NCBI GenBank assembly: GCA_964016885.1
Contig: OZ024740.1
Coordinates: 227,974,001 to 228,038,000, forward strand
Direction: 5' to 3'
Length of the DNA stretch: 64,000 bases
From: Eledone cirrhosa
Lineage: Eukaryota
Shown here: positions 5,401-64,000 of the stretch, piece by piece
Position numbering within the stretch: the stretch's first letter is position 1
Layout of the letters: each line of letters begins with the position of its first letter
Notes under the pieces: model-generated
Databases searched by the model: none
The model's input: the letters and a program-made list of their open reading frames with translations, nothing else
Told to the model about the DNA's origin: nothing
Made by a program: the position numbers and the translations under genes

Positions 5401-6021
5401 GCCTCTCTCCAGCAATCTATTTAAAGCTTAATATCGCTATGGTACGACCACACTTAGAATTTGCATCACCAGTCTGGAACCCCTATCTTGCTCAGAACAT
5501 TGACCACCTGGAAACTGTTCAGAGACGTGCAACCAAGCGAATACTCTCCATCAGGCATCTACCATACTCTGAATGCCTTGCTTTCCTGGGCATGGATACA
5601 TTGAAGCTCTGACATCTGGCAACTGACTTGGTAAACACCCACAAAATCATTAACCATCTTGCCAACAACAACCCTGAGTACCTTTTTGATTTCCATGTGT
5701 CTAAAACACGGCATGCCCACAAAGTCAGAAAACAGCACAGCTCCCATGACTTTCAGAAACATTTTTTCACGCTCAGAGTTGCTGAAGCATGGAACAAACT
5801 ACCTGCATCAGTTGTTAGCTGTCGAGACACTGCATCCTTTAAAACCTCCATGCTTCCTGAGATTCACCAACACTACACCTAATATTCCCCCTCCATACAC
5901 ACGCACACATGTATTTCATGACTCGTACACTATTCACTTCCCTGACATTAGTATATTATTCTATGTACTATACATGCACCTTTGATGAGTTGTATTGCAC
6001 CTGAGCACTGTACACGATAAT

Positions 6022-6052
<31 letters not shown>
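2490..6052 (+). mobile_element. Decayed CR1/L2-group LINE ORF2 (APE endonuclease plus RT) with (ATT)n tail, interrupted at about 4291-4680 by foreign sequence
   Basis: APE motifs VTETW, YRPP, GDFN, SDH; RT motifs YLDFVKAF, VPQGSVLGP, YADD, VRPHLEFASPVWNP; many stops and frameshifts. Confidence 0.92.
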
Positions 6053-6056
<4 letters not shown>

Positions 6057-6464
6057 AGTTGCAGGCTGTGTATTTTCAATATTTCCTTTGTAGTAACAGT
6101 AGATAAGTCATCTGTTGGTTTCTGCATCATATTTTCATGGGAAAAGGTGCTACTTATACACGAGTATATATGGTACTTTACGACCTTTTATATAGCACTC
6201 CTTCCTTTCACTGTCAATTCACCAATCTTATAATATAAATTACCAATATAAGAAATAGAATTTCCAATGCTGCCTATTTATTTTCTGTTTCTCTTCATTT
6301 CAGCATGAAGACTTCTAGTTTCTGACACCACCATAATAAATAAATATATAAAAATAATAAATAATAACACATAACTAAATAAAAATAAAATAAATAATAA
6401 CATAATAACTATATATATGTGTATATATATATATATATGATAAATAATAACCCAGAACTAAATA

Positions 6465-34959: not shown

Positions 34960-37900
34960 TATATGTGTGTAGATATCTGAGTTGTGTCAGGGGGTAACTA
35001 CAGTTAAAAAAGGTACTCAGTCTATTGGTAGAATATAGGATCTTTATTAGCATAGGTTAGTCGTTAGTGACATCTCAGTAAGCAAGAGAAAGAATGAGAC
35101 ATACAGGAAGGTGTGGAAAAGAAAGGTCTGGAAGCTAAAAGATCTTTCATTAAAATATGAATTTAGCAAAGCCCTTCAAGATGTGTACAACATAGATGAT
35201 AACTGGAATTTCTTGCGTGACAACTTACTGCAGGCTACTGAAGAAAATTGTGGTTGGGGCAGAGCTTCAACCAGACAGAGAGTGACCTGGTTGTGGAACA
35301 GCACGGTAGATAGGGCCATTAGAGACAAAAGACTGGCATAGAAAGCTTGGAAAATGGTGGGAGTAGAGACGGATACACAGCCACTAAGAGAGAAGCTAGA
35401 CGTCAGGTGTACTTAGCACGCAGGGAGGCTGAGAGTAGGAGGTTTGCCAATGTTCTGCGATGGGAAGATCAGAGACGTGCGGTGTTCCACATTGCAAGGC
35501 AGTGTGTCAGTGCGAATCAGGATGTTGTTGGAGATAAGTGTGTCCGGAATGATGCCGGTGTACTTAGTGTCACGAATGATCAAAAGAAGGAGGCCTGGAA
35601 ATGTCATTATGAGAGACTGATGAATGTAGAGAACGAATGGGACAGAGAGAAATTACCCCCAGTAGACCCGACGCAGGAACCAGCTATTGAGATTGACGAC
35701 TATAGAGTACAAGAGGCAATTAAGGAAATGAAGAATGGTAAGGCTGCTGGACCATCGGGGATAGTTACTGAGATGCTGAAGGCATCAGAAGTAGGCACTA
35801 AACTAGTTGCACACATCATTAATTAAGCTATATATGGTGGTGTCATACCCAAAGACTGGTGCAGCAGTATTCTCATAAATTGCTACAAAGGTAAAAGGGA
35901 TGCTCTAGAGAGGAGTAATTATAGGGGCATAAAGCTGATGAATCAGGTTATGAAAGTGGCAGAGAGAATATTAGCGCAACTGATTAGAGAAAGGGTCAAT
36001 TTAGATGAGATGCAGTTTGGTTTTGTGCCTCAGAAAAGTACAACAGATGCCCTCTTCTTAGTGAGGCAACTACAAGAAGAATAAGCCACTATACTTAGCT
36101 TTTGTTGACCTAGAGAAGGCCTTTGATAGGGTACCCCGATCTGTCATCTGGTGGTCCCTAAGGAAACTAGGTGTAGAGGAATGGTTTGTGAGGACTGCAA
36201 GCTATGTATAGGGGTGCTGTCAGTAAAGTGAGAATAGGAATAGAGTTTAGTGAGGAATTCCAGATACAAGTAGGTGTACATCAAGGTTTGGTCCTCAACC
36301 CACTCTTGTTCATTATAGTCCTCCAAGCCATAACAGAGGAGTTTAAGACTGGATGCCCATGGAAACTTCTCTATGCTGATGATCTGGTTCTTATAGCAGA
36401 ATCAGTAGCGGAGCTAGAGAATAAATTCCAGCTATGGAAACAGCAGTTGGAATCAAGAGGCCTGAGAGTGAACATAGCTAAAACAAAAGTGTTGATAAGT
36501 AGAAGAGAGGACAATACTCTAATTCCATCAGGGAAATGGCCATGTTCGATATGTAGGAAACTGGCATAAATTCCATAAAATGTACGAAATGTAGATCTTG
36601 GGTAAACACGAGATGTAATGGGATAGCAGGCAAACTAACAGGTAGGGAAAACTACGTATGCAGTAGATGTACAGGGAAAGTTGGCAGTATTAATCTCTGT
36701 GATAGACTCATTTTTCCAATGCAGGTGGGTTCTTTAGAAGTGGTTGGTAGCTCCCGGTACCTAGGTGATCAGGTTAGCATGGGAGGGGGGTGTTCCGAGG
36801 CCATAGTATCTAGAATAAGGACGGGTTGGAAGAAGTTTAGGGAGCTGCTTCCTCTGTTGACAAAGAAGGGTTTCTCCCTGTGTATGAAAGGACAGTTATA
36901 TGATCCCTGTGTGAGATGCGCGATGCTGCATGGTAGTGAGACATGGGCAGCAACTGCAGAAGATATGCGACGGCTGGAGAGAAATGAAGCAAGTATGCTC
37001 CATTGGATGTGCAATGTCAATGTGCGTGAATGACCAAGTATAGACGAGTTGAGAAAGAAACTGGGTATAAGAGGGATAAGTTGTGGTGTGCAGGAGAGAA
37101 GGCTGAGATGGTATGGACATGTGATGCACATGGAGGATGACCGCTGGGTGAAGAAGTGCCAGGAAGTCTCAGTGGAGGGAAGACGCAGTAGAGATAGACC
37201 ACGAAAAACATGGGTGGAGGTGGTGAGAGCAGACCTCAGATCGCTGAAATTCACAAAGGACCGTGACAAGTGGAGAGATAGCTGTGCTGAATAGGACCCG
37301 TCCAACCCTTGCAAGCAGGGAAAAGCGGACGTAAAATAATGATGATGATGATAATGATCATCACCGTTTTATGTCCGTTCTTCCACGCTAGCATGGGTTA
37401 GACGGGTTGTCTTGCTGATACAGGAACTGATTCTGGCTTGATTTCTACAGCTGAATGCCCTTCCTAATACCAACCTCATTTACAGTGAGTGCTGGGTACT
37501 TTTTTGATTCCTCTTATGCTCAGTCTCTCTCTCAATTCATTTATGCTTTGCCGTTCGCGTATATTACTATTACACATCCATCGGAGCATGCAAACTTTCT
37601 TTCTTTCTAATCTGAGCAAGTCTTCTACAGACAGCACCCAGGTCTCACTACCATGTAACATTGCTGTTTGTATACATGCATCATACAGTCTGCCTTTCAT
37701 TTTAAGGGAAAACCCTTTTGCAGCTAGCACTAGCTCCCTGAACTTCTTCCATCCCGTTCTTACCCTAGTTATTGTACTTTCCGAACACCAACCTCCGCTG
37801 CTAATTTGGTCACCAGGACTAGTTTCATTCATATGAAATCATCAGGAATGTCCCTGATGATTTCATACGAATGTCTAACCCATGCTAGAGTGGAAGATAG

Positions 37901-43900: not shown

Positions 43901-46248
43901 TTAAATATATGAAATATCCTATTTAATGTGGTAAACAGTTGTGTATAATGTTGAAGATAAATATTGTTGGTGATCCACACAATAAAGAAAACTTGCCAAA
44001 CAAAGTTGGAAGGACCCTTCAGTTGTGCCATAAACCCCTTCCTCTATTGTTGGTGCCATGATAGAATGCACTTGGAAGAGAGAGGGATTATATGTCATAT
44101 CCCTGACCCATCTTAAGATCAAAGGCTTCCTTGCTAGCAAGGAAAATGGATGTTAAATGATGATCATATCCTCTTGACTGATGTTATTTTGTTATTACTA
44201 ATTAAGATGTACCATATATATCACCATCATCATCGTTTGACATCTATGTTGCATCTCAATTTTACATACAACATTTACAGAGTATCATGTATTTTGAATT
44301 GAGGTTTTGTTTCAGGCCGTATTTTTGTGGAAATATGTCACAACAAAAAGCACCCAGTACACACTGTATCAAATGTGGCTGACATTAGGAAAGGGCATCC
44401 AACCGTAGAAACCTTGCCAGAACCAAATCTGTATGAGCAAGACATGGTCACCTGATTTGACTTGTCTCACAACAGGACAACTCGTCTAACTCATGCATAG
44501 AAAAATGGACATTAAATGGAGATGATGATGATGCAACCTATATATGATTATAAACTAATTGATTAACCCACCTGTGACTATATTTCTAATGAAAGACACT
44601 GCCCATGATTTTCAAAATAATCAAGAATTTGGAGGAATTTAATAGAATAAATAACCTTTTCGTTTTTAAGCTGGTGTTTGAAATATGCCATAAAATTTTC
44701 TTACATAAAATTATGATAGATTGAAGTTTAAATCTGAACACTTTATAACTGCTTTGTATTATAAAACCAGGAGTAGCTTTAAGTAGTTTCGTATCAGAAG
44801 GGTTTATCATAATTTCTGTATTATTTGACATATATAATGTCTATCTAACCCATGCAAGCATGGAAAAATAGACATTAAGCAATGATGATGACTGATAGAA
44901 GCTAAACATAAAACAAAAACTATCTTTTTCATTATTAATAAGTTATCTGGCGTTTTTATTTATTCCCAGTTGCGATAAACTATATTCAAGGCAAAGACAG
45001 AGTACAGCCTTACACTTTAGAAATAGTTGTTGAACTCCCACCAAATTCTGTGAGTTCACTTTCCTTTGAATTCGATCGTGCCTTCCTGAAATGGACAGAA
45101 TATCCGCCCGATGCAAACCATGGCTTTTATATCAATTCTGCAGTAATTTCTGCAGTCCTTCCAGTTGCTAGGAACTACACATCTCCTCGACAACAATCTT
45201 CTGTTTTGATTGACAGGTAAGATTTATTTAAACTTTTTGTTACCATATTTTTAAATGAAGATATAGCTGATTATTTTCAAATAAGTTTTGAAAATAAGAA
45301 TTTGGAGGGTTTTAGTAATATAACTAAAACATTTTCTGTTTATTAAGCCAGCTGTTCAATCATTATAGACTCCATTGAAAATCTATAATAATTGAAAGTT
45401 ATTGTCTTTTCTATTCTTGCAATGGGAGATGTTTAATTTTGTGAATCATTTTTCATTTAAAAAAACAATAATCACTTAATACTGTAAAAGAATGGGACCT
45501 TTAATTAATATTTACTTTAGCCAGTCAAATTAAGACAAGTAATATTTCCCAGGAGTCTTCTGCATGAATAATTTACTTAATGTTAAAATAATAATTAAAT
45601 TTACAGCTGTAATGAATAGAAAAATCCCTTAATTCTTGCCAATAAAGGCAAGGGAGACAAATCCAAATTATAAATTGAATGGTGGCATGCATTAGGAAGT
45701 TTGATCTAAGGTAAATACAGTGATAACTTTGAACATATTTCAGTATTATTAGATATCCAACAAAACATAATCTTACATCCTAATTGACTTGAGATAATAA
45801 AAATATTGGGTGGAAAATTTTTCCCAGGTATGCTATCTGTATGAAGAATAGAATATATAGTTAAGTGGAGAGAAGATAACATTGTAGTGCCATCCTCCTA
45901 TCCAATAAAAAAAATTATAAAATAAAATAAAACAAGTTACTAATATTTCATGTAGGATAAAATTAATAATTTACAGCAGTTAAATTTATAATAATTTTAT
46001 TTAGTTTCAGATCATCTACCAATTCTGATCAAATTCTTGTGAGGATCCATACTGAGAACCTGCTGCTTTCACTACCTACCCCAGATTTTAGTATGCCTTA
46101 TAATGTGATTTGTCTGGCCTGCACAGTCATTGCTATTGCATTTGGATCTATACACAATTTGACAACTCGGAGATTGGTAGCTAAAGATCCTGATCTTAAA
46201 ACTGGTTTAAAACACACACTAAAAAAATATATACAAAAATTCTTTTGA
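16966..46248 (+). CDS. PIGT: GPI transamidase component PIG-T (Gpi16), complete spliced CDS, 10 coding exons, about 575 aa
   Basis: Exons join in frame through GT..AG introns with matching phases; total 1728 nt including stop. Diagnostic motifs [75 protein letters not shown]; N-terminal signal peptide and C-terminal TM helix. Confidence 0.97.
17414..17597. mobile_element. hAT-like MITE
   Basis: TIRs caggcccgtagcca / tggctacgggtttg; 8-bp flanks tttcactt and gttcactt (7/8 match). Confidence 0.75.
18133..18660. mobile_element. Cluster of SINE family 1 copies (+, -, partial +) in PIGT intron 1
   Basis: Near-identical copies of about 185 bp separated by repeated ttattgatattattaat. Confidence 0.9.
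18735..18934. mobile_element. Mariner/Tc1-type MITE of about 200 bp; copies at 458-585 (partial), 10945-13249 (split by RTE) and 19708-19875
   Basis: Imperfect TIRs tacgaggtgagctgaaatgttcataagctgac / gtcagcctgtgaacttttcagccgaccctgta with TA ends. Confidence 0.8.
21680..22925 (+). repeat. Minisatellite, unit of about 27 bp (gagagagaggcagtgctggagggtgtaat)
   Basis: Directly visible tandem array in PIGT intron 1. Confidence 0.95.
23448..23625 (+). CDS. PIGT: PIGT coding exon 2 ([12 protein letters not shown]...[13 protein letters not shown])
   Basis: Acceptor tttcag, donor gtattc, phases 1/2. Confidence 0.95.
24620..24857 (+). CDS. PIGT: PIGT coding exon 3 ([23 protein letters not shown]...[17 protein letters not shown])
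   Basis: Acceptor atttag, donor gttagt, phases 2/0; retains the LLPC cysteine equivalent to human C182 that bonds to PIGK. Confidence 0.96.
25210..27170 (+). mobile_element. Highly decayed RTE-clade LINE in PIGT intron 3, with a short inverted internal segment at about 25865-26030
   Basis: [15 protein letters not shown] and ELLYTDDL remnants; homologous to the other RTE copies. Confidence 0.85.
28192..28276 (-). ncRNA. Type I hammerhead ribozyme motif with extended stem II
   Basis: UGUCUC-CUGAUGA-GUUCG...CGAAC-GAAA-CCAUGGUA-GGGAUA: intact core, stems I and II pair, palindromic stem III ACCAUGGU. Confidence 0.7.
28640..29460 (-). mobile_element. Penelope-like element fragment (RT remnant plus 3' pseudo-LTR)
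   Basis: [18 protein letters not shown] motif typical of PLE RT; downstream CTGATGAAGGGC-TTAT-GCCCGAAACGTC hammerhead-like core. Confidence 0.85.
30664..31008 (+). mobile_element. tRNA-derived SINE family 2 with RTE-derived 3' tail; near-identical copy at 55739-56085
   Basis: A box tggcttagtggttag, B box gagttcaattc, ccttgagcaagacact core, tail matching the RTE 3' end. Confidence 0.88.
31198..31284 (+). CDS. PIGT: PIGT coding exon 4 ([29 protein letters not shown])
   Basis: Not in ORF track; polypyrimidine tract plus tag acceptor, gtaagt donor, 87 nt, YHS..H.R.VCR motif. Confidence 0.93.
32950..33121. mobile_element. Tc1/pogo-type MITE
   Basis: TIRs taccgtatttcc / ggaaatgcggta, TA ends. 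Confidence 0.7.
33240..33327 (+). CDS. PIGT: PIGT coding exon 5 ([29 protein letters not shown])
   Basis: tttcag acceptor, gtaatt donor, phases 0/1, EL.Q.LSV.FD motif. Confidence 0.92.
33645..34010 (-). mobile_element. RTE 3' fragment; similar fragments at 30085-30280 (+), 37495-37815 (-), 50465-50712 (-) and 56710-57200 (+)
   Basis: [16 protein letters not shown]-type C-terminus and shared 3' tail. Confidence 0.8.
34632..34726 (+). CDS. PIGT: PIGT coding exon 6 ([32 protein letters not shown])
   Basis: cag acceptor, gtgagt donor, phases 1/0, WSL..F.R.L...CPLAS motif. Confidence 0.94.
35050..37355 (+). mobile_element. 5'-truncated RTE-clade LINE in PIGT intron 6
   Basis: [37 protein letters not shown]; 3' end ccaacccttgcaagcagggaaaagcggacgtaaaa(tga)n. 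Confidence 0.93.
39424..39631 (+). CDS. PIGT: PIGT coding exon 7 ([12 protein letters not shown]...[11 protein letters not shown])
   Basis: ttgtag acceptor, gtgagt donor, phases 0/1. Confidence 0.92.
41473..41625 (+). CDS. PIGT: PIGT coding exon 8 (GYGLENGGI...[23 protein letters not shown])
   Basis: ttgcag acceptor, gtgagt donor, phases 1/1, GYG and PW..R.Y motifs. Confidence 0.94.
44970..45216 (+). CDS. PIGT: PIGT coding exon 9 ([18 protein letters not shown]...[23 protein letters not shown]...)
   Basis: Not in ORF track; tcccag acceptor, gtaaga donor, phases 1/2. Confidence 0.95.
46005..46248 (+). CDS. PIGT: PIGT terminal coding exon (…[44 protein letters not shown]…KKYIQKFF*)
   Basis: Acceptor AG ending at 46004 (alternative at 46010), TM helix, TGA ending at 46248. 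Confidence 0.94.
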
Positions 46249-46780: not shown

Positions 46781-47744
46781 GGTGGTGTTTGGAACATAAT
46801 TTAACAAAAGTTCTTACATAAGTTTCTTATATTTGATAAATATAATCACTAGGAATATAAACAAGTCTGCATTCCACAGCATTTTTTAAATTTACTCTTT
46901 AACATTCATGAAATAAATATATTTTAATGTAATATTTATCTAAAAATGGTCATGCTGGTGACATGACATAAAGCACCCAGTTCACCCTGTAAGGTGGTTG
47001 TGCTGGTGACATGACATAAAGCACCCAGTTCACCCTGTAAGGTGGTTGTGCTGGTGACATGACAAAAAGCATCCAGCCCACCAAGTAGATGGACATGCTG
47101 GTGACATGACAAAAAAGTACCCAGTTCACTCTGTAAGGTGGTCATGCTGGTGACATGACAAAAAGTACCCAGTTCACTCTGTAAGGTGGTCATGCTGGTA
47201 CCACGGTAAAAAAAGTACCCAGTCAAGTCTGTAAGGTGGTTGTGTAGGTGATATGACAAAAAGCATGCAGTCCACCCTGTTAGATAGTCATTTAGGTGCC
47301 ATGATAAACAGCACCCAGTCCGTGTAATGTGGTTGGTATTAGGAAAGGCATTCAGCTGTAGAAACCAGATTAGTTCCATATGAGCAAGACACAGTCATCT
47401 GACCTTGTCTCATAATGTGACAACCTGTCTAACTTAAGTACGATCAATATATATATATATAAAACAATCTTACCTCATTCCTGAATACTTTAATAATACT
47501 GATGTCTTTATTTGGATGTTAAATCACTGCAAGTATTGTTTGTGTCAATGTTGAAAGGATTACCACAGTAAAATATCTGTAGAAATTGTAATTAATATAA
47601 ATAAATTACAAATATACTTAATACTCTTATGAAATATGTAAAGTATCATGTGATTAGAAAATAGCAGTGGAATTTGAAAATTGAATTGAATTAATAACTT
47701 TGCTGTATTTTTCTTTTACTATAGAAAATAGTCTACTACTACTA

Positions 47745-48816: not shown

Positions 48817-48923
48817 CTGTGCAGATTCTGATCCTGGTGGACATACAACATTAAAATTATCGTTGGAATCAGAACTATCAGATAAGGACTGAAAAATATC
48901 TGATTCAACGGAGACAGTTGGAT
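48817..48923 (-). CDS. Uncharacterised gene, exon C (DPTVSVESDIFQSLSDSSDSNDNFNVVCPPGSESAQ)
   Basis: tttacag acceptor, CAG|gtaaat donor, phases 1/0, open, same Ser/Asp-rich composition as exon B. Confidence 0.75.
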
Positions 48924-50861: not shown

Positions 50862-51207
50862 CACTGTAATGACAAGAATCATTATTGCTATTGAAACAAT
50901 TCCGAAATTTTTTTCTAGCTGAAATGTTTTCTATTTGATCTTCATGAGATGAATCTGATTCAAAGGAATTGTTTTCAATGGAGTTTGATTTAACAATTTT
51001 GGGTAATTTACACACACACAGGGATTTGGGGTAATTCTCTTCGAAATTATTTTCCAAAGGCAGCTCTGAATGTCTTTGAATATCTGGTTCCAAATTTAAT
51101 ACATTGATTTCTGGAACTATTGTTGATGTTATCTCTTCATTGCAAGATTGGTATTCTTCATTATTTGGAGTGCTGATGGCAGGGGAAGGACTAGATTCTC
51201 GAGATTC
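50862..51207 (-). CDS. Uncharacterised gene, exon B (ESRESSPSPAISTPNNEEYQSC...NDSCHYSG)
   Basis: 346 nt open within ORF 50683-51276; gtaagt donor; exits in phase 1, matching the next exon. Confidence 0.75.
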
Positions 51208-52030
51208 CTCAAATGAAAACAATACAAAAATTAGAGTGAGTGCATGTGGAATAGATATATAAATATAGATCAACATTTATGATTTCTTACATAGGCCAAA
51301 GGCCAGAAATTGTGCGTGTGTATGCATGTGGTGGTGGTAATAGCAGCAGCATTGGTAGTAGTTGTAGTATTAGTATTAGTAGTAGAAATGGTAGTCGAAA
51401 ACCTGTTGATTGTGTTGCACAAGAATGGACGTTAAACAATGATGACGATGATTCACTTGATACTCTACTGATTCTACCACTCCAACATTATTAAAAACTT
51501 CAATAATAATAATAATGATTTCTTACATAGGCCAAAGCCCAGAAATTGCGCATGTGTGTGTTGGGTGGCAGAGCTCAGTTGGTTATGACAACACCAATAC
51601 AAGACTGGTACTTTATTTTATCAATTCTGGAAGAATGATAAGCAAAGTAAACCAAGGCAGTTTTTCAACTTGGACTGTAAAGGACAATAACGAAATATTG
51701 CAAGCTATTTCGTTTGATGCTCTAACAATTCTTTCAAACCAATCTAACAAATTATAATAATAATGATTTCTGATTTAGGTATAAGGTCAACAATTTTGGG
51801 GAAGAGAATATTGATTAAATCAACCCCAGTATGTTACTGGTAATTTATTTTATCAACTCTGTAAGGATGAAAGGCAAAGCTAATCTTGGCAAGATTTGAA
51901 CTCAGAACCTAAAGAGTCGTAACTAAACACTGTAAGGTTTTCAGTAGTAGTAGTGGTGGTGGTGGTAATAGCAGCAGCATTAGTTGTAGTTGTAGTATTA
52001 GTATTAGTAGTAGTAATGGTAGTCCAAAAC

Positions 52031-52189
52031 CTGTTGATTGTGTTGCACAAGATATTGATAAAAAGTCTGAGGTTGTGTCTGGTCAGAAGAAGTTGTTTTT
52101 TCTTTGGTACTTAAAATAGGAGTGGTACACCACGATTCTTCATTATTTGTAGTGCTGATGGCAGAGGAAGGACTAGGTTCTCGAGATTC
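52031..52189 (-). CDS. Uncharacterised gene, chimeric duplicated exon copy 2 (ESREPSPSSAISTTNNEESWCTTPILSTKEKTTSSDQTQPQTFYQYLVQHNQQ)
   Basis: 159 nt, phase 0/0, open, same splice sites as copy 1. Confidence 0.6.
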
Positions 52190-52527
52190 CTCAAATGAAA
52201 AGAAAAAAGTAATTAGAGTGAGTGTATGTGGGGGATATATATATATATATAACAACATATATTAACTAGATAGAGAGAGTGAGAAAAAGAAAGAAACTGA
52301 GTGACTTGAAAGGTAAGACATCATCATCATTATCTTCATCACTGTTTAATGTCTATTTTTCCAAGTTGCATGGGTTAGATGGGTCATCCATGTTATGAGA
52401 CAAGTCTGGTCAGGTGGACACACCGTACCTTGCTCAAATGGAATTGTATTACCTTATATAATAAATAGTTAAGTAGATGACAGAGGATAATGTGTTATAA
52501 TATATATATATATGTATTATAATGTAT

Positions 52528-52558
<31 letters not shown>

Positions 52559-53970
52559 ATTCTTTTATTAATATATTTCTAATGAAAAACACTGGCTATA
52601 ATTTTTTAAGTGTTTTGAAAATTATCAAGAATATTACTAAATCAGGGAATTAGTAATATAACAATTTCTTATTATTAAATGGATTGGTTGTATTGGTTGA
52701 GTGTCAGACAGAGTACTTTGTGGCATTTGTTATGTTTTTAGTTCAAATCCTGCCGAGGTCAACTTTGCTTTCATCTCAGTCACTTACTGGAGTCGATGTA
52801 TTTGACTTCCCCCTTCCCACAAAATGGTGGCATTGTTAGATAATTATAAACAGGTTGTTAGATAATTATATACACTTTAAAATATAATTTTGGTGGATAG
52901 GTCTAGTATCTGACTGCTATTTTATTTCATCATTCATGGAAGGATGCAAAGCATATTTAAACCTGTTAGCAGTAAAACTTGGAGCATAAAGAAAGGCATC
53001 CAGATGTAGAAACGAAGCCCTGTATGAACAAGATATGGTCATTAGATCTGGCTTGTCTCACAACAGGACAACTTGTCTAACCCATGCTAGCATGGAAGAA
53101 TGGACTTTAAACAATGATGACGATGATTCATTTGATACTCTACTGATTCTACCCCTCCAACATTATAAAAACTTCAATAATAATAATAATTGTTTCTACT
53201 TTAGGCACAAGGCCAGCAATAACCAAGTACATTACTGGTATTTTATTTTGATTTCTTACATAGGCCAAAGGCCAGAAATTGTGCATGTGTGTGTTGGGTG
53301 GCAGAGCTCAGTTGGTTATGACAACACCAATACAAGACTGGTACTTTATTCTATCAATTCTGGAAGAATGATAAGCAAAGTAAACCAAGGCAGTTTTTCA
53401 ACTTGGACTGTAAAGGACAATAACGAAATATTGCAAGCTATTTCGTTTGATGCTCTAACAATTCTTTCAAACCAATCTAACAAATTATAATAATAATTGT
53501 TTCTACTTTTGGCACAAGGCCAGCAACTACCCAGTGTATTACTGGTACTTTATTTTATCGACCCCGTAAGGATGAAAGGCAAAGTTAACCTTGGCGGGAT
53601 TTGAACTCAGAATGGCAATGGCAGTAACTCTATGCGTCAAAGCATGGCGTCCAACCCTCTACCGATACTGCCAATCCCCCGCCTTATTATAATAATAATG
53701 ATTTCTGATTTAGGTACAAGGTCAACAATTTTGGGAGGAGAATATTGATTAAATCAACCCCAGTATGTTACTGGTAATTTATTTTATCAACTCTGTAAGG
53801 ATGAACGGCAAAGCTAATCTTGGCAAGATTTGAACTCAGAACGTAAAGAGTCGTAACTAAACACTGTAAGGTTTTCAGTAGTAGTAGTGGTGGTGGTGGT
53901 AATAGCAGCAGCATTAGTTGTAGTTGTAGTATTAGTATTAGTATTAGTAGTAGTAATGGTAGTCCAAAAC

Positions 53971-54129
53971 CTGTTGATTGTGTTGCACAAGATATTGATC
54001 AACACTCTGAGGCTGTGTCGGGTCAGAAGAAGTTGTTTTTTCTTTGGTACTTAAAATAGGAGTGGTACACCACGATTCTTCATTATTTGTAGTGCTGATG
54101 GCAGAGGAAGGACTAGGTTCTCGAGATTC
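53971..54129 (-). CDS. Uncharacterised gene, chimeric duplicated exon copy 1 (ESREPSPSSAISTTNNEESWCTTPILSTKEKTTSSDPTQPQSVDQYLVQHNQQ)
   Basis: 159 nt, phase 0/0, open; branch-like ctaat plus tttgag acceptor; CAG|gtttt donor. Confidence 0.6.
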
Positions 54130-54389
54130 CTCAAATGAAAAGAAAAAAGTAATTAGAGTGAGTGTATGTGGGGGATATATATATATATAACAACATATAT
54201 TGACTAGATAGAGAGAGTGAGAAAAAGAAAGAAACTGAGTGACTTGAAAGGTAAGACATCATCATCATTATCTTCATCACTGTTTAATGTCTATTTTTCC
54301 AAGCTTGCATGGGTTAGATCGGTCATCCACGTTATGAGACAAGCCTGGTCAGTTGGACACACCGTACCTTGCTCAAATGGAATTGTATT

Positions 54390-55675
54390 AGAGAAACACT
54401 TTGGAACATCTGGAATTCTCAGTCTTATCCGGGCCCCCACAATTTGGATTTATCCCTAACTCCAGCTGGTGTGATCAACTTATCGAGTTTCTTGAAGATG
54501 TTACCCGAATCGCTAATGATGGCTCATGGGTAGATGTTGCTTATCTTGACTTTGTTAAAGCTTTTAATTCTGTGCCACACAAAAGACTTATGGCAAAACT
54601 ATCTGCAATGAGTGTGAAGGATGATCTTTTCAATTGGTTCAAGTCCTTTATTCTCAGTTGAAGAGAGGTAGTCATGGTTCTAGGACAGCATTCTTCACCG
54701 TATGAGATGTCATCTGATGTACCACAGGGATCTGTTCTTGGTCCCCTTTTGTTTGTTACATAGATGTCAACTTAAAAAATGCCACAGTTCTGAAATATGC
54801 AGATGACATCAAGCTGTACGTTGAGATAAAAAGGACAGATCCTGAACACTGGATCTTTCCTGCAATCTGACCTGGAAACAATGCAACAATCGATCACGGA
54901 CTGGCAACTCAAGATGGCTGTGGACAAATGCACCACAATGCATTTTGGGAGGAAAAACCCAGCATCCACATACTCCCTACACAACACTAATATCAAAATG
55001 TCTTCTTGTCAGCAGCAATTTGCGTTGGATAAAGAACTTCTCTAAAATTGTCAAGAAGGTCAAGGGTGTCTTAGCATCACCCAGCAAGACCTTTGTCAGC
55101 CGCTCTCCGCTATCTATTTAAAGCTCTATATAGCCATAGTATGGCCACACTTAGAATTTGCATCACCAGTCTGGAACCTCTATCTTGCTCAGAACATTGA
55201 CCTCCTGGAAACTGTTCAGAGACGTGCAACCAAGCGATTACCCTCCATCAGGCATCTACCATACTCTGAACACCTTGCTTCCCTGGGCATAGATACATTG
55301 AAGCTCTGACATTTGGCAACTGACATGGTAAACACCCACAAAATTATTAATCATCTTGCCAACAACAACCCTGAGCTCCCATGACTTTCGGAAACATTTT
55401 TTCACGCTCAGAGTTGCTGAAGCATGGAACAATCTACCTGCATCAGTTGTTAGCTGCCAAGACACTGCATCCTTTAAAACCTCCATGCTTCCTGGAATTT
55501 GCCAACACTACACCTGATATCCCCCCTCCATACACATGCACACATGTATATCATGACTCATACACTGTTCACTTTCCTGACATTTGTACATTATTCTATG
55601 TACTATACAAGCACCTTTGATGAGTTATAGTGCTCCTGAGCACTGTACACAATAATTTCATTATTATTATTATTA
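54390..55675 (+). mobile_element. 5'-truncated CR1/L2-group LINE, same family as 2490-6052
   Basis: RT motifs, same 3' UTR and (ATT)n tail; empty site visible in the paralogous intron at about 52450. Confidence 0.92.
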
Positions 55676-56213
55676 TATTATATAATAAATTGTTAAGTAG
55701 ATGACAGGATAATGTGCTTTATCCTAATATATATATAATGGAGGCACATGGCTTAGTGGTTAGAGCATTGGCTTTGCAATCGAAAGGTTGTGAGTTCAAT
55801 TCTCAGACCAGGTGATGTGTTGTTTCCTTGAGCAAGACACTTTATTTCACATTGCTCTAGTTTACTTAGCTGTAGAAATGAGATGATAGGGACCCCAGTC
55901 CCTATCATTCCACTGCAAAGTGGTCGTGTAGGTGCCACGGCAAAAAAAAAAAGCACCCAGCACTCACTGTAAATGAGGTTGGTGTTAGGAAGGGCATCCA
56001 GCTGTAGAAATCAAGCCAGAATCAGTTCCCGTCCCACCCTTGCAAGCAGGGAAAAGCGGACGTAAAATGAAATGATGAATGATGATATATATGTGTAATC
56101 TTTTTATAGTAGTAGTGGTAGTGGTGGTGGTAATAACAACAGCAGTATTAGCATTATTATTCTTAGTAGTAGTAGTGGTAATAGCAGCATTAGTAGTAGT
56201 AGTAGTCCAAAAC

Positions 56214-56310
56214 CTGTTGATTGTGTAGCAAAAGATATTGATCAAAATTCAGTGGTTGTGTCTGGTCAGAAGAAGTTTCTTTGGTACTTAAAATAGGACT
56301 GGAACACCAT
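56214..56310 (-). CDS. Uncharacterised minus-strand gene, exon A (WCSSPILSTKETSSDQTQPLNFDQYLLLHNQQ)
   Basis: ttatag acceptor, CAG|gtttt donor, 97 nt open, exits in phase 0; upstream exons not identified. Confidence 0.65.
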
Positions 56311-58492
56311 CTATAATAGAATAATAGAATATTAGACCATAGAAAATGTAGAGGAATACGTGAAGATATAAAACAAACTGTCATAAACAGAAATCCCCTT
56401 CATGTTGTTGACTAGATATCAATGTGATTTTAAAATCTTTTGACAGGATCATTACATCTGGTTGTGTCAGAAGCATTTAAACTGATAGGGAATGGTGTAG
56501 TTTTTGAAGGTGAAAAACAGGATAATAACAGAAAATATAGGAGGCATTTTGATCTAAATGCAAAAAGGACAACACATGAGGTAGAAAACAGAGCAATAAT
56601 GGGGAATGTTAGGGTTTGAACAAACAACAACACATACATGAGTGTACAGAAGAAATGCTAAGAGAGGAAAATACAGTAGTAATTTGTTCAAGACAAAACA
56701 AAAAATGGAGTAGGCAGATACTATCTAATAGACCTCATTAACAGTAGAGGTGGGTATACTGAAAGTTTTGTAACCAGAGAGAGAACAGGATGGAAGAAGT
56801 ACAGGGAGATGTTGCCTCTGCTGACAAAAAAAGGCTTCTTTTTTTCAGAGTAAAGGAGAGATTATATGATGCTTGTATTCAAACTGCTATGCTACATAGG
56901 AGCAATATATGGGCTCTGAGTGCAGAAGATCTGTGATGGCTAAAAAGAAATGAAGCATGCATGCTTCACTTGAAAAATTGAGAATAAGAGGTACTGAATG
57001 TAGTATGCAAGAGAATAAATGTGATGCGTAAAGAGAATGAAAGTTGTATAAAATAGATACCAAGAGCTTGAAGTGGCTGGAACTTGTGTAAGAAGGAGAC
57101 TAAGGAAGACATGGAATGGAGTTGTGAAGAATGATCTCAAGAAACTGAACCTCATGAAGGAAAGTTGACTGGTGATACACCATAATAAAAAACACCCTGT
57201 CCACCTGTACAAGCACTGTGATTCTGAAAGAAAACATGGTGAGAGACTGGAGGCTACAGTGTTGGCAATTGATAGGGCTATAGAGTGATAGTGTGGGTGC
57301 TATAATAAAACATATCTGGTACACCCTGTGAGGTGGTTGGCATTAAGAGGGCATCTGGCTGTGGAAGTCATGCTAGATATGGAATATGAGTGAGATGGAG
57401 CATCTAACACTTGCCACCGTGGAATGTGGACATAAAATGATGATGATGATATGTATATATATATATATGTATGTGTAAATGTATATGAGAGTATGTATAT
57501 ATATGTATGTGTGTGTACATATGTATATGTAGTCATTCAAATCATATCACCAACTTTGTATCATTCCAACACTTTTTCTTATTTCTTACATTACTTTGAT
57601 AAAAGATTCTATATGAAATGTCAGGTGGATTCCTTTCTTTTTATATGGTGTAAATATTTCTACTCTACACACATTGTTCTTATTTTTGTGCAAACATTTT
57701 GTCAGCCACTTCTTTTTAGTTTTTTTCACTTTTTGCTTATCTGTTCTATTGTGTCATCCTCACCTATATTATGTCTTCATTAATCTCCTTCTTACACAGG
57801 TTCCATCCACTTCAAGCTCTTGGCATCTATTTTATACAACTTACATTCTCTTTATGCATCTCATTTGACTCTCTAGCATGCTACATTCAGAGTCGAGCCC
57901 GATCGATTAAGATCGAACCATGAGCTGATCAATCCCGAAACGCATGTCACACCTGAATAAATTTAATGAAAATTTGATACCTCATCCATACTTATTATTA
58001 TGACACTCTGTGGGCAGTGGATTGGCAGTATCAGTAGAGGGTCGGACGCCATGCGTTGCAGCATAGAGTTACAGTCTGAATTCAAATCACACTGAGGTTA
58101 ACTCTGCCTTCCATCCTTGTGGGGCGATAAAATAAAGTACCAGTCACGCACTGGGGTCGATTTAATCGATTTTCCCCTTCTCCAAATTGCTGGTCTTGTG
58201 CCTATATAAGAAACCATTATTATGACACTCTGTTTAATACAATCCCAAAGTACATACTGAAGACTACACATTCCGTGCTCGCTTTGGTGAACTAACAGTA
58301 ACTTGATCCTGAAACTATATATATATATATGTGTGTGTGTGTGTTTATGTATTTGTTCTGCATGATTCTTATTGTGAAATCATGCGTTGAAACTGATATG
58401 TTTATATTTGGGGATAGTCATGTTGCCAATAGAAAGAAACACACGCACCATATAACTTTATCTTTATTGTTCATTATTAATTTGTTCATCAA

Positions 58493-58682
58493 GGGCGGTG
58501 AATTGGCAGTATCGGTAGGTCGGACGCCATGCTTCGACGCATAGAGTTACGGCCCTTGCCATTCTGAGTTCAAATCCCGCTGAGGTTAACTTTGCCTTTC
58601 ATCCTTACGGGGTCGATAAAATAAAGTACCAGTAATGCACTGGGTAATTGCTGGCCTTGTGCCAAAAGTAGAAACAATTATT
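58493..58682 (+). mobile_element. SINE family 1 copy; others at 23930-24115 (-), 34071-34222 (+), 53495-53685 (-) and 58012-58220 (+)
   Basis: Same A/B boxes and body; flanked by duplicated attattaatttgttcatcaa (TSD). Confidence 0.88.
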
Positions 58683-59209
58683 AATTTGTTCATCAAAGTT
58701 CTTTCATCACACATTCTACAGCATCTAGCTGTAGAAAGCTTGTGAAACAAAGAGTTAGGAGGACTCCCAGTTCTGTCAAAGACATGACAATCTCTACTGT
58801 GCACTTGGTGGAATGTGAGACTGTACATAATCAAGACACAGATCCCTGGCCTGTCTGGGAGATCAGTGGCTCTGCTTCAGTACTGACTTGGTCTATGTAG
58901 ACCCATCCAACCCTTGCTAGCAGGGAAAGTGGATGTTAAAATGACAACAATGATGATGATGATATATATATAACTTAATTTTAGGTTTAATCAATACATA
59001 TAAAATATGTATAGATAAGGTTTCTCAGTAAAAGCTCAATAAACTTTTGTTTAGAACATCAATAATATAAAATGATTTTAAATAATATGGAGATATATCA
59101 ATTGAGAGTCTAACCAGGCTTTAACACTTAAATATATAAATATATAAATCAAATACAATTTAAGGTGTTAAATAAAAACATTATTCACACAACAGGAAGA
59201 AGAACGAGA

Positions 59210-61870
59210 CGTCACATCTCAGAGTTGCCACTCTAACAGGTAGATCTGATGAGATAGCGGAGATGCTGGAGAGAAGGCATGTGGATGTGTGCTGTGTGCA
59301 AGAGGTGAGATGGAGAGGTGCCTCTGCAAGACTAATCGCAGGCAAACATTGTAGTTATAAGCTTTTCTGGGTGGGTAATGATGATGGGTTAGGGGGAGTA
59401 GGCATTTTCCTGGCTGAGAGATGGATCAATAAGACAATAGAGGTAGTTAGAGTTAGTGATAGAATAATTAAGCTTAGATTAATTGTAGGCAAGAGACTAC
59501 TGACAATCATCTCTGCCTATGCTCCCCAGGCAGGCCTAGGTAAAGAAGAGAAAGACTGCTTTTACGAGCAACTTTTACAAACAGCTTCAATGGACATGTT
59601 GGACAGCTCTAGGATGGATGATATACTGGGGTACATGGTGGGCACGATTACAGCTCAAGAAATGAAGAAGGAGTGAGGCTTCTTGAATTTTGTGATGCAA
59701 ATGCACTAACCATTTGCAACAATAACTTCCAGAAGCCTACCAACCACCTAATAACCTACAAATCATCAGGCGAGCACATAAGCTAGATCGACTTCCTGCT
59801 AGTTTGACAGCAAGACAGACAGATGGTGTCAAATACTAAGGCATACCCTGGGGAAGAATGTACCCCACAGCATAGGTTAGTCGTCAGTGACATCTCAGTA
59901 TGAGAAAGAATGAGACATACAGAAAGGTGTGGAAAAGAAAGGTCTGGAAGCTAAAAGACCTTTCATTAAAATATAAATTTAGCAAAGCCCTTCAAGACGT
60001 GTATGACAAAAAAGAAGACGATTTAGAGTTATATGACATAGATGATAACTGGAATTTCTTGCGTGACAACTTACTGCAGGCTACTGTAGAAACTTGTGGT
60101 TGGGGCAGAGCTTCAACCAGACAGAGAATGACTCAGTGGTGGAACAGCACAGTAGATAGGGCCATTAGAGACAAAAGACTGGCATGGAAGGCTTGGAAAA
60201 ATGGTGGGAGTAGGGAAGGATACACAACTGCTAGGAGAGAAGCTAGACGTCAGGTGTACTAGGCATGCAGGGAGGCTGAGAGTAGGAGGTTTGCCAATGT
60301 TCTGCGACGGGAAGATCAGAGACCAGCGGTGTTCCGCATTGCAAGGCAGTGTGTCAGTGCAAATCAGGATGTTGTTGGAGATAAATGTGTCCGGAATGAT
60401 GCCGGTGTAATTAGTGTCACGAATGATAAAAAAAAGGAGGCCTGGAAATGTCACTATGAGAGACTGATGAATGTGGAGAATGAATGGGACAGAGAGAAAT
60501 TACCCCCAGTAGACCCAACAGAGGGACCAGCTATTGAGATTGACGAATATAGGGTACAAGAGGCAATTAAAGAAATGAAGAATGGTAAGGCTGCTGGACC
60601 GTCGGGGATAGTTGCTGAGATGTTGAAGGCATTAAACTGGTTGCACACATCATCAATCAAGTTATATATGGTGGTGTCATACCCAAAGACTGGTGCAGCA
60701 GTATTCTCATAAATTGCTACAAAGGTAAAGGAGATGCTCAAGAGAGGAGCAATTATAGGGGCATAAAGCTGATGTATCAGGTTATGAAAGTGGCAGAGAG
60801 AATATTAGCGCAACTGATTAGAGAAAGAGTCAAATTAGATGAGATGCAGTTTGGTTTTGTGCCTGGGAAGAGCACAACAGATGCCCTCTTCTTGGTGAGG
60901 CAACTACAAGAGAGGTTCTTAGAGAAGAATAAGCCACTATACTTAGTCTTTGTTGACCTAGAGAAGGCTTTTGATAGGGTACCCCGATCTGTCATCTGGT
61001 GGTCCCTAAGCAAACTAGGTGTAGAGGAATGGCTTGTGAGGGCAGTGCAAACTATGTACATGGGTGATGTCAGTAAAGTGAGAGTAGGTATGGAGTTTAG
61101 TGAGGAATTCCAGATATAAATAGGTGTACATCAGGGTTCGGTCCTCAGCTCGCTCTTGTTCATTATAGTCCTCCAAGCCACAACAGAGGAGTTTAAGACT
61201 GGATGCCCATGGGAATTTCTCTATACTGATGATCTGGCTCTTATAGCAGAATCAGTAGAGGAGCTAGAGAATAAATTCTGGCTATGGAAACAGCAGTTGG
61301 AATCAAGAGGCCTGAGAATGAACATAGCTAAGACAAAAGTGTTGATAATTAGAAGAGAGGACAATACTCTGATTCTATCAGGGAAATGGCCATGTTCGAT
61401 ATGTAGGAAAGGAACTGTCATAAATTCCATAAAATGTATGCAAAGAAGGGTTTCTCCCTGCATACGAAAGGCCGGTTATATGATGCCTGTGTGGGAAGCA
61501 AGTATGCTCCGTTGGATGTGCAATGTCAATGTGCGTGAACGACCAAGCATGGACGAGTTGAGAAAGAAACTGGGTTTAAGAGGGATAAGTTGTGGTGTGC
61601 AGGAGAGAAGGCTGAGATGGTATGGACATGTGATGTGCATGGAGGATGACTGCTGGGTAAAGAAGTGCTAAGAAATCCCAGTAGAAGGAAGACACAGAAG
61701 AGGTAGACCACACAAAACATGGGCGGAGGTGGTGAGAGCAGACCACAGATCGCTGAAACTCACAGTGGAGATGACGAAGGACCGTGACAAGCGGAGAGAT
61801 GCTGTGCTGAATAGGACCCGTCCAACCCTTGCAAGCAGGGAAAAGCGGACATAAAATGATGATGATGATT
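59210..61870 (+). mobile_element. Near full-length decayed RTE-clade LINE (APE plus RT), close relative of 35050-37355
   Basis: [36 protein letters not shown]; same 3' tail; internal deletion near 61440. Confidence 0.93.
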
Positions 61871-62229
61871 AATTTATATTTAAATAGCTGTACTTCCAAA
61901 TATGACCATTCAAGCATAGACAAATCTGTTTCTGAGAATCAGAAAAAAAATTGAAAATCCACCATTGATTACAGTAATTAGTATCGATTACGGTGAAAAT
62001 TCAATGAAGACTATCATTCCCTTCATCAGTATGTTTAAGTCTCTGCTAAAATACATATATATCTCGCGCTGTATTAAAAGCCTAGTTCCTACCTTTTGTG
62101 GCAGATATTTATTTAAATATCTCCCATGAGGTGTAAATTATAACGTAATATATAGAAATATATATAGAGATATAGAGAGAAGGGCAAACAGGACAAGGCT
62201 TAAGGATTGCTAGAAAGAGATCCAGGTAT

Positions 62230-62272
62230 GCAGTCCTGATGAAGGGTAATGACCCAGAAACATGTTGATTGT
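62230..62272 (+). ncRNA. Minimal type I hammerhead ribozyme motif
   Basis: GCAGUC-CUGAUGA-AGGGU-AAUG-ACCCA-GAAA-CAUGUU-GAUUGU; stem I pairs, palindromic AACAUGUU. Confidence 0.6.
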
Positions 62273-62918
62273 TCCACAGTGCCAGTGTTGAACGGATGAC
62301 GATCAGTCATTGGCACAACACAACTTTACTCGGGCCGTTTGTTTACAAACGAATCGAATATTATTATTAATGTTTGATATAATCCATATGTATATGTATA
62401 TATGTAAGGCTCCCAGTCTAAACTGTAAATGTAGTTAGTGTTAGGAAGGGCATCCAGCCATAGAAAACCTGCTAGAGACAGTTCTGTACGAGTGAAACAC
62501 CGTCTCCCAACCAATCTCACCTCAAGTGGGACAAAGTCGTCCAACCCATGCTAGCATGGAAAATGGATGTTAAACAATGATGATGATGATGATGATGATG
62601 ATGATGTGTGTGTACATATATGTGTGTACGTATGCATACTTACATGTATAATGTTTCACAGTAAAAGCTCAATAAACTTTTGTTTAGAGCATCAATAATA
62701 TAAAATAATTTTACACGATATATTGAGATATATCAATTGAGAAACTAACGAGACTAAACAAATAGGCCATTTAAGTATAAATTAATTGTTATGTGAGTAA
62801 TGCTTTTATTTAACATCTTAAATTGTATTTGTTTTATATGTATTAAAGCCTTGTTAGTTTCTCAATTGAAATAGCTCAATATATCGTTTAAAAATATTTT
62901 ATATTATATATCTATCTA

Positions 62919-62952
<34 letters not shown>

Positions 62953-63289
62953 ATAATAATACAAGGACAATTTGTTAAGCCTTCATTATGTTTATTGATT
63001 GGTGACACGCGTTTCGCTATTGATCAGCTCAAGGTTCGATCTGGCCCGACTCTAGAATCAAAAGCTCGTTGGACTTCTGCTGTTGTAATGACAGAATTCT
63101 GTCATTACAACAGCAGAGGTCCGACAATGTTACACTGTTTAGCTCTACAACTCACCACTGACGTCAACTTAAACATCGAGTGCTCATCTGGGTGAAGCTA
63201 CAGTAACTTCACGTTACACTCCTGGATATATATATATATCATCAACACAAGAGAGGTAACACCAGAAGAGCATCAGGAAAGGGGAAAAA

Positions 63290-64000
63290 CCCTCAACTCA
63301 CATATGATGATGTGGACTAGCATAATGCAGACTAATAAACGGACTGCCAACAACTTCCAGGCCTGGAACAACAATGTACCAACGCTGTACGGGCTTCGCA
63401 AAGACCACAAAGCAAATAGTGACCCAGTCACAGGACCACCAACACGGCCAGTCTGTGAAGCTAACATTGCTAGCAACTACAGACTCTCCTATTTCCTCTC
63501 CCTGATCATACGCCCTATCATCGAAATGTCCCCAGATATATGCGACAGCACGGAGGACCTCCTCAGCAGAATCAACGAATGCAACTTGTCTAGGTACCTA
63601 ACAGGCTGTACAATGGGTATCATGGATGTAGTGTCCCTATATCCATCCATTGACGTTGATTTTGCTGTGGAAAAATTCATAGAAATGATTGGCGAGAGTG
63701 AGGTGGAATTCCGTGGGATTGATACCAGTGAGCTGGGACTCCTACTTAAACTGACATACAAGAAGGATTATTTAGACACACATGACCTCAGCAGCCTCTG
63801 CCCCACAAGGCCAGAAAGAGGCAGATCACCTACCATTACCTTAATGGCCAAGAAGACCCACACAGAAAGATGGAGCGGTGGACTAGAGTTATACAGACGC
63901 CTGAAAACCACGATGAATTAAATTTTAAAGAAAATGATCGCACATGCTGTGGGAGCCAGTATAAAACTAACCTTTAAGGAACATGTGTTAAAATTTAATG
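63290..64000 (+). mobile_element. Penelope-like element RT, runs off the window end
   Basis: PTLYGLRKDHK...PTRPVC...DVVSLYPSI motifs. Confidence 0.8.

What the first reader, a model, noticed from the sequence alone, without database searches (positions are those of the whole stretch)
50862..56310. Chimeric exons created by intragenic tandem duplication in an unrecognised gene
Seen: exon A (56310-56214) encodes WCSSPILSTKE...HNQQ and exon B (51207-50862) starts ESRESSPSPAISTPNNEE. Between them lie two 159-nt exons (54129-53971, 52189-52031) made of the first 18 or so codons of B fused in frame to almost all of A, using B's acceptor and A's donor. Both are open and phase 0/0, while the surrounding duplicated introns have taken indels and TE insertions. 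A remnant of a further copy (3' end only) lies at about 51403-51422. Inference: a duplication with breakpoints inside two different exons made a new symmetric cassette exon that was then re-amplified, growing a 53-aa Ser/Thr-rich repeat.
Basis: partly seen in the sequence, partly recalled or inferred. Interest (0 to 1): 0.75.

Follow-up and report, generated by a model that had tools for sequence, protein, structure and literature searches.

The report
Telomere protein TIN2 grows chimeric exons
A duplication inside what is likely this animal's only TIN2 telomere-protein gene fused the start of one exon to the exon before it, and the fused exon was then copied again, which would lengthen the protein's variable tail by two 53-residue repeats if, as is likely but untested, the copies are spliced in.

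Summary
Read depth fits true copies (about 1.9-2.0x), not alleles. The gene is not unrecognisable. An upstream exon passes Pfam TINF2_N (31.2 bits, cut-off 29.4) and is the only match found in the genome. Nine predicted exons, eleven with the two fusion units, chain in one frame (497 aa, or 603 aa), so this is likely shelterin TIN2, and the repeat lies in its poorly conserved tail. Phase 0/0 follows from the geometry, X1 and X2 differ as much as their introns (5/159 against 15/867), and 10 of 11 changes from the parent exons alter the protein. Inclusion in mRNA is likely, because the units inherit the native splice sites and stayed in frame, but it is untested, and an in-frame route that skips them exists. 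Best reading: a tolerated, near-neutral birth-and-death exon array that lengthens a flexible tail. A clear example of a known process.

The parts
56311..64000 (-). In-window part of the predicted 23.7-kb intron upstream of A. Beyond the window end (numbering continued) lie the predicted exon 80206-79971, which ends in phase 2 as A needs, the TINF2_N exon 82494-82291 (G000:C1:228056291-228056494), and predicted exons 83826-83743, 88360-88149 and 91005-90866
   Evidence: Pfam PF14973 31.2 bits, cut-off 29.4; only match found in the genome, 3 candidates scored
56214..56310 (-). Exon A (parent of the 3' part of the fusion); phase 2 to 0; branch-point-like CTAAT at -25, TAG acceptor, weak CAG/GTTTTG donor
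54391..55690 (+). 5'-truncated LINE (reverse-transcriptase remnant) inserted in the A-X1 intron, absent before X2
53971..54129 (-). Chimeric unit X1 (55 nt of B + 2 nt + 102 nt of A type), open frame, 53 aa
52031..52189 (-). Chimeric unit X2, 5 substitutions from X1, all within 21 nt
51403..51422 (-). Remnant X3: last 20 nt of an older third unit with its donor; the rest was likely removed by a deletion at a 4-nt TCTT microhomology
   Evidence: (7 differences in 103 nt from X1)
50862..51207 (-). Exon B (parent of the 5' part); GAG acceptor that is the first AG after a CTAAT at -27; phase 0 to 1
48817..48923 (-). Predicted exon C, phase 1 to 0
47474..47576 (-). Predicted exon D, holds the stop codon
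4290..5050 (-). Ectopic copy X0: about 370 nt of the LINE, 262 nt of intron tail and about 125 nt of the chimeric exon, pasted into another LINE copy 47 kb downstream of B; truncated, outside the predicted gene

Best explanation
A tandem duplication of one intron with its flanking exon ends, in what is likely the single TIN2 (TINF2, shelterin) gene, fused the first 55 nt of exon B in frame to exon A, and unequal crossing-over likely multiplied the unit into an array that is probably spliced in and tolerated as extra length in a variable tail. Shown: the fusion, two intact units, one decayed unit, one ectopic copy, the open frame through all predicted exons. Inferred steps: (1) A-intron-B became A-intron-X-intron-B by a non-homologous junction; (2) an older duplication gave X3; (3) a recent crossover (about 1.7% divergence) between the homologous intron tails, next to the LINE, gave X1 and X2; (4) a microhomology deletion destroyed X3; (5) a break in a LINE 47 kb away was repaired from the related LINE in the A-X1 intron and ran on into X. 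Because each unit inherits B's branch point and acceptor and A's donor, the spliceosome would treat it as an exon, adding 106 aa. Selection would only have had to keep the frame and the splice sites, not the residues.
For: Gene identity: TINF2_N above cut-off, one locus, phases 2-1-0-0-0-2-0-0-0-1-0 give one open frame of 603 aa with and 497 aa without X. True copies: four depth ratios of 1.88-1.98; for the three contigs whose span could be modelled, 1.77-2.06 is expected for real copies and 0.88-1.21 for alleles. Crossover in the tail: the 262 nt before X1 and X2 differ at 5 of 260 sites, the 76 nt before B at 16 of 76, and the LINE precedes X1 only. Ectopic repair: identity to the intronic LINE rises from 92% (70 differences in 900) to 0-1 difference per 100 nt in the last 300 nt and 7 in 384 over tail and exon, after which the host LINE resumes with a repeated stretch of about 120 nt. 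Inclusion: donor identical to A's for 12 intron bases, same branch-point motif, a stronger pyrimidine tract than B's (8.6 against 3.0 on a rough matrix). Staying intact since origin has a rough neutral probability of 0.01-0.09. Near-neutral residues: 10 of 11 changes between X2 and the parents are non-synonymous, 74% expected (P 0.18). [quoted passage not shown]
Against: No transcript evidence. Both splice sites of this intron are atypical (G at -3 of the acceptor; GTTTTG donor scores -1.6 on my rough matrix). The upstream phase-2 exon can join B in frame at +17 or +35, bypassing A, X1 and X2. Exon-versus-intron conservation since the origin is not significant (11-13/151 against 32/233, P 0.07-0.15), and those intron alignments are short and microsatellite-rich. 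The dead copy X0 also took an in-frame 3-nt deletion, so in-frame indels here can be slippage. TIN2 identity rests on one exon just above the cut-off; three other upstream exons gave no Pfam match. The three read sets are one sample and may be the assembly's source. The five X1/X2 differences cluster in 21 nt (P about 0.001 if uniform), which plain neutrality does not explain.
Confidence: 0.62

Rival explanations
1. The duplication is real but the units are pseudo-exons or minor isoforms. The main mRNA goes A>B, or goes from the upstream phase-2 exon straight into B at an internal AG (+35 or +17), or ends by retaining the weak intron after A (stop after VLDYYYY), giving a short TIN2.
For: Both bypass routes are in frame. 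The donor and acceptor are weak. No sign of purifying selection between X1 and X2. Human TIN2M arises by intron retention (10.1101/435958, passages), and mice lacking the C-terminal extension are viable (PMC11941968, passages), so tail isoforms are tolerated.
Against: X has the same donor as A and a better acceptor tract than B, and lies closer to A. The +17 and +35 AGs score poorly (-9.2 to 2.3 against 5.5 for X +0). The +0 AG is the first after the branch-point motif. The frame survived since the origin.
Confidence: 0.25
2. The repeat is adaptive. It multiplies and diversifies a short partner-binding or phosphorylation motif in the TIN2 tail and so tunes shelterin assembly or telomere length.
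For: The unit arose once and was duplicated at least twice. All five X1/X2 differences fall in codons 37-44, four of them non-synonymous (P about 0.001 for the clustering). Each unit adds two Ser/Thr-Pro sites. The human TIN2 C-terminus affects telomere length.
Against: No [FYH]xLxP motif anywhere in the predicted protein. The dN:dS split does not differ from neutral. One unit was lost. A local mutational hot spot explains the cluster as well. No relatives were available to test it.
Confidence: 0.08
3. Assembly artefact: X1 and X2 are two alleles, or one unit, joined in tandem.
For: 1.7% divergence is within the range of alleles in marine invertebrates (own knowledge). The reads laid may come from the assembled sample, and no piece spans the array.
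Against: Depth ratios near 2 fit true copies and not alleles. The units differ by a LINE and by 202-nt and 59-nt insertions. The fusion junction itself cannot arise from merging alleles.
Confidence: 0.04

Closest known systems
TIN2 / TINF2 (shelterin; Pfam PF14973 TINF2_N)
   Same: N-terminal TINF2_N domain followed by a long Ser/Thr/acidic tail; one locus found in the genome. The tail is described as poorly conserved outside mammals (PMC8653790 passages).
   Different: No FxLxP TRF1-binding motif (the paper finds it only in mammals). The tail carries an exon-encoded 53-aa repeat. I found no report of one in the searches; the accession table of PMC8653790 has an oyster TIN2 and no 'Octopus' entry (one supplementary file could not be searched).
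Tandem exon duplication
   Same: Adjacent homologous exons made by local duplication; about 10% of animal genes are reported to hold them (PMC9013439 passages).
   Different: The unit is not a copy of one exon but a fusion of two neighbours, and it is symmetric, so copies would add up rather than be mutually exclusive.
Chimeric exons from exon-exon DNA breakpoints
   Same: A DNA junction directly fuses two coding exons: a named class of oncogenic fusion, 11 of 2012 events (PMC10076316 passages); a chimeric FGFR2 IIIb/IIIc exon from a deletion (PMC3192734, search listing only).
   Different: Those are somatic or pathogenic events, between genes or by deletion. This one is a germline duplication within one gene, carried at about two copies per genome in the sample read, and re-amplified.
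[quoted passage not shown]
   Same: A duplication across an exon-intron boundary makes a new intron that inherits branch site, pyrimidine tract and acceptor (potato RdRp, PMC4974935, abstract).
   Different: Here the whole intron is copied with both splice sites, so no new site had to arise, and the new exon is a hybrid.
Templated insertion by one-sided gap repair between LINE copies (own knowledge)
   Same: Identity gradient into the donor, capture of flanking unique DNA, non-homologous rejoining with a short duplication.
   Different: Mechanism inferred from one event; not tested.

Membership tests
TIN2 / TINF2 | TINF2_N (TRFH-like) domain above Pfam's cut-off | tested here: met
   One exon gives 31.2 bits against 29.4, profile positions 84-144 of 149
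TIN2 / TINF2 | Whole domain covered (profile positions 1-83 in the upstream exons) | tested here: inconclusive
   Upstream exons of 46, 70 and 28 aa gave no match when scanned singly; they were not scanned joined
TIN2 / TINF2 | Domain at the N-terminus, followed by an unconserved tail, in one open frame | tested here: met
   Predicted exon chain; the first exon and start codon were not fixed
TIN2 / TINF2 | Single locus (orthologue rather than paralogue) | tested here: met
   1 match from 3 candidates scored; the tool's counts are lower bounds
TIN2 / TINF2 | FxLxP TRF1-binding motif (mammals only) | tested here: not met
   No [FYH]xLxP in 603 aa; not expected outside mammals, so not disqualifying
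TIN2 / TINF2 | Binds TRF and TPP1 at telomeres | not testable with these tools
   needs experiment
Tandem exon duplication | Adjacent homologous units with homologous flanking introns | tested here: met
Tandem exon duplication | Copies real in genomic DNA | tested here: met
   Depth ratios 1.88-1.98; one sample only
Tandem exon duplication | Copies spliced into mRNA | not testable with these tools
Chimeric exon (exon-exon breakpoint) | Both breakpoints inside coding exons | tested here: inconclusive
   B side at +55 is inside; A side lies at the exon's first base, within a few nt of the intron edge
Functionally constrained protein repeat | Fewer substitutions than introns, deficit of non-synonymous changes | tested here: not met
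   5/159 against 15/867, P 0.22; 10 non-synonymous to 1 synonymous against the parents; low power

The most novel reading that the evidence does not exclude
An invertebrate TIN2 is building a new tandem repeat out of a fused exon, and positive selection on codons 37-44 diversifies a short partner-binding motif in each copy. Shelterin valency or telomere-length control would then be tuned by exon copy number, in an array that is still gaining and losing copies.
Probability: 0.07. Interest if true: 0.7.

Novelty: new member of a known kind. Interest (0 to 1): 0.36.

Why it matters
Shelterin linkers are known to vary greatly in length between animals. This locus shows one route caught in the act: copying a whole intron with bits of both neighbouring exons makes a ready-spliced, symmetric exon in one step, with a 1-in-3 chance of being in frame, and that exon then seeds a repeat array. 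Birth, re-duplication, loss and ectopic escape are all readable in 52 kb. It also gives a gene model for a likely invertebrate TIN2. It does not overturn anything: the process is known, and nothing shows that the repeat has a function.

Tried and rejected
No RNA holder listed: 3 runs found, none on record as RNA. They behave as genomic DNA, so expression could not be tested; this is no evidence either way. Protein searches found no relative: exon B, longer proteins, 84 candidates, none at E 0.01; exon B against 1.84 billion representatives, 0 hits; the TINF2_N exon, 8 candidates, none; solved structures, 3 chance-level matches, best E 0.33. I ran no positive control for whether these libraries hold proteins of this animal group, so the blanks say nothing on novelty. 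The Atlas gave no answer. Earlier findings of the scan: none by place or by words. A weak Pfam TERF2_RBM match on exon C (E 0.17, 11.8 bits, cut-off 27) is rejected as chance. A plain ORF listing of the upstream 100 kb was too noisy. Gene conversion from A into X2 as the source of the clustered differences is rejected, because the X-type bases between them are kept. Symmetric phase as evidence of selection is rejected on geometry. A paper on internal gene duplication that I recall (Gao and Lynch 2009) is not held and is not used. A five-term search for hybrid exons from tandem duplication gave 0 papers, and one on splice sites in this group gave nothing usable. No structure was predicted.
Full report
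1. The observation. On the minus strand, exon A (56310-56214, 97 nt) and exon B (51207-50862, 346 nt) flank two 159-nt units, X1 (54129-53971) and X2 (52189-52031), each open for 53 codons. Each unit is the first 55 nt of B (3 differences), a 2-nt link, and A from its second base on (8 differences for X2, 10 for X1, in 96 nt, plus 6 extra nt). The intron starts and ends around the units are copies of those of the A-B intron. The remnant at 51422-51403 is the last 20 nt of an X-type unit with its donor. A search of the genome with X2 gives five places, all in this window (counts are lower bounds). One is new: a truncated copy, X0, at window 4412-4290.

2. Is it real DNA? Three read sets of one sample hold the region; they behave as genomic DNA. 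Seven single-copy contigs per run have median depths of 12.0, 9.8 and 9.6. Contigs over duplicated sequence have depths of 23.4, 19.1, 18.4 and 19, giving ratios of 1.95, 1.95, 1.88 and 1.98. For the three contigs whose span I could estimate, the assembly predicts 2.06, 2.00 and 1.77 if the copies are real, and 1.21, 1.12 and 0.88 if X1 and X2 were alleles. Only the longest contigs were shown, none spans the array, and the sample may be the one assembled. This argues against false duplication of alleles but is not independent confirmation.

3. The gene. The window lies on a 443-Mb contig of a 3.0-Gb genome. Its short interspersed repeats look octopod to me; that is recalled, not tested. I fetched 100 kb upstream and scanned it with rough splice-site matrices of my own and by eye. 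One exon, at 82494-82291 in continued numbering, matches Pfam TINF2_N at 31.2 bits (cut-off 29.4), and a search with the family finds only this place (3 candidates scored). Exons at 91005-90866, 88360-88149, 83826-83743, 82494-82291 and 80206-79971, then A, X1, X2, B, C (48923-48817) and D (47576-47474), join in one frame of 603 residues, or 497 without the X units. The exon before A ends in phase 2, which is what A needs. The three other upstream exons in the domain region gave no Pfam match singly, and no database relative was found. The gene is therefore likely, not certainly, TINF2/TIN2. It ends tail to tail with a PIG-T/Gpi16 gene on the plus strand. [quoted passage not shown] Passages of PMC9351484 describe shelterin linkers as predicted disordered and highly variable in length. 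The repeat lies in that tail.

4. History (inferred from divergences). The oldest event fused B at +55 to the start of A. The introns have since diverged by 7-21% in three short comparisons (32 differences in 233 nt in all). The A-side break lies within a few bases of the intron edge, so it is not shown to be inside the exon. The remnant and its intron start differ from X1 at 7 of 103 sites, so X3 is older than the X1/X2 split. X1 and X2 have introns that differ at 15 of 867 sites. The 262 nt before X2 match those before X1, while the sequence further upstream is more diverged and lacks the LINE found before X1. That is the pattern of unequal crossing-over between homologous intron tails. X3 was then cut by a deletion with TCTT on both sides. 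X0 is likely a templated repair. Its host LINE is 92% like the LINE in the A-X1 intron (70 differences in 900 nt), becomes 99% like it over the last 300 nt or so, carries on through the intron tail into the exon (7 differences in 384 nt), then returns to the host LINE with about 120 nt repeated.

5. Are the units exons? For: they have A's donor and B's branch-point motif and first-AG acceptor, with a stronger pyrimidine tract than B. A rough neutral model gives 0.01-0.09 for an in-frame junction that keeps frame and splice dinucleotides since the origin; the rates come from short, microsatellite-rich introns, and the finding was picked because it is intact. Against: both sites of this intron are atypical, and the upstream exon can enter B in frame at +17 or +35, although those AGs score poorly. 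Symmetric phase is automatic when both flanking introns are copies of one intron. The lack of indels is expected with probability 0.40-0.58, and the dead copy X0 took an in-frame deletion too. I put inclusion in a main transcript at about 0.65.

6. Is the sequence selected? There is no sign of it. X1 and X2 differ at 5 of 159 sites against 15 of 867 in introns (P 0.22). Against the parents, 10 of 11 changes in X2 are non-synonymous, where 74% is expected (P 0.18). Exon against intron divergence since the origin gives P 0.07-0.15. One thing is unexplained: all five X1/X2 differences fall in 21 nt (P about 0.001 if uniform), and one site there has three different bases in A, X1 and X2. A mutational hot spot and diversifying selection both fit. 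Power is low throughout.

7. Mechanism. The most likely reading (0.62) is a tolerated array: each unit is spliced in because it inherits working sites, adds 53 Ser/Thr-rich residues to a tail of little constraint, and is gained and lost by recombination in a repeat-rich intron. Tolerance is plausible, since mice lacking the TIN2 C-terminal extension are viable and keep telomeres protected (PMC11941968, passages). The human C-terminus does affect telomere length (10.1101/435958, passages), so a function is not excluded. Rivals: units skipped or minor (0.25), adaptive motif multiplication (0.08), mis-assembly (0.04).

8. Novelty. Tandem exon duplication is common (PMC9013439, passages). Chimeric exons from exon-exon breakpoints are a named class in tumours (PMC10076316, passages), and intron gain by duplication with inherited splice signals is described (PMC4974935, abstract). 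Searches for TIN2 with shelterin and mollusc, for citations of the shelterin evolution paper and for cephalopod with TINF2 listed nothing on this locus. The library lacks most subscription papers, and one supplementary file of PMC8653790 could not be searched. Verdict: a new member of a known kind, unusually legible, in a core telomere gene. Interest 0.36.

Noticed in passing
window 4161-6057: A LINE copy carries a templated insertion of TIN2 intron and chimeric-exon DNA from 47-50 kb away, with a step in identity from 92% to 99% and a duplication of about 120 nt at the far junction; likely one-sided gap repair between LINE copies.
   Followed up: yes
window 44942-46245 (+ strand): Last exons of a PIG-T/Gpi16 GPI-transamidase gene (Pfam PF04113, 75.6 and 94.2 bits). 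Its end lies a few hundred bases from the predicted last exon of the TIN2 gene, tail to tail, so the 3' UTRs may overlap.
   Followed up: partly
window 54020-54000 and 52080-52060: All five X1/X2 differences cluster in 21 nt (P about 0.001 if uniform); one site has three bases among A, X1 and X2. Unexplained.
   Followed up: partly
window 56213-56190, 53970-53945, 52030-52005: Read-through of the weak donor ends in a stop after a short Tyr-rich run; intron retention would give short TIN2 isoforms, an analogy to human retention isoforms only.
   Followed up: no
window 47576-47474 and 46493-46400: The stop falls in exon D, about 35 nt before a strong donor; a further exon-like segment E would be untranslated, or give another C-terminus if D is skipped.
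   Followed up: no
window 63196-64000 and L005:1-1250: Fragments that look like a Penelope-type retroelement (reverse transcriptase with a GIY-YIG-like end; label recalled, not tested) in the long intron upstream of A.
   Followed up: no
L005:6590-7330 (continued numbering 70590-71320): Broken Tc1/mariner-like transposase frames in the same intron (label recalled, not tested).
   Followed up: no
window 59869-61438 and 35049-36584: Two copies of a retroelement-like repeat, 90% identical over 1.6 kb.
   Followed up: no
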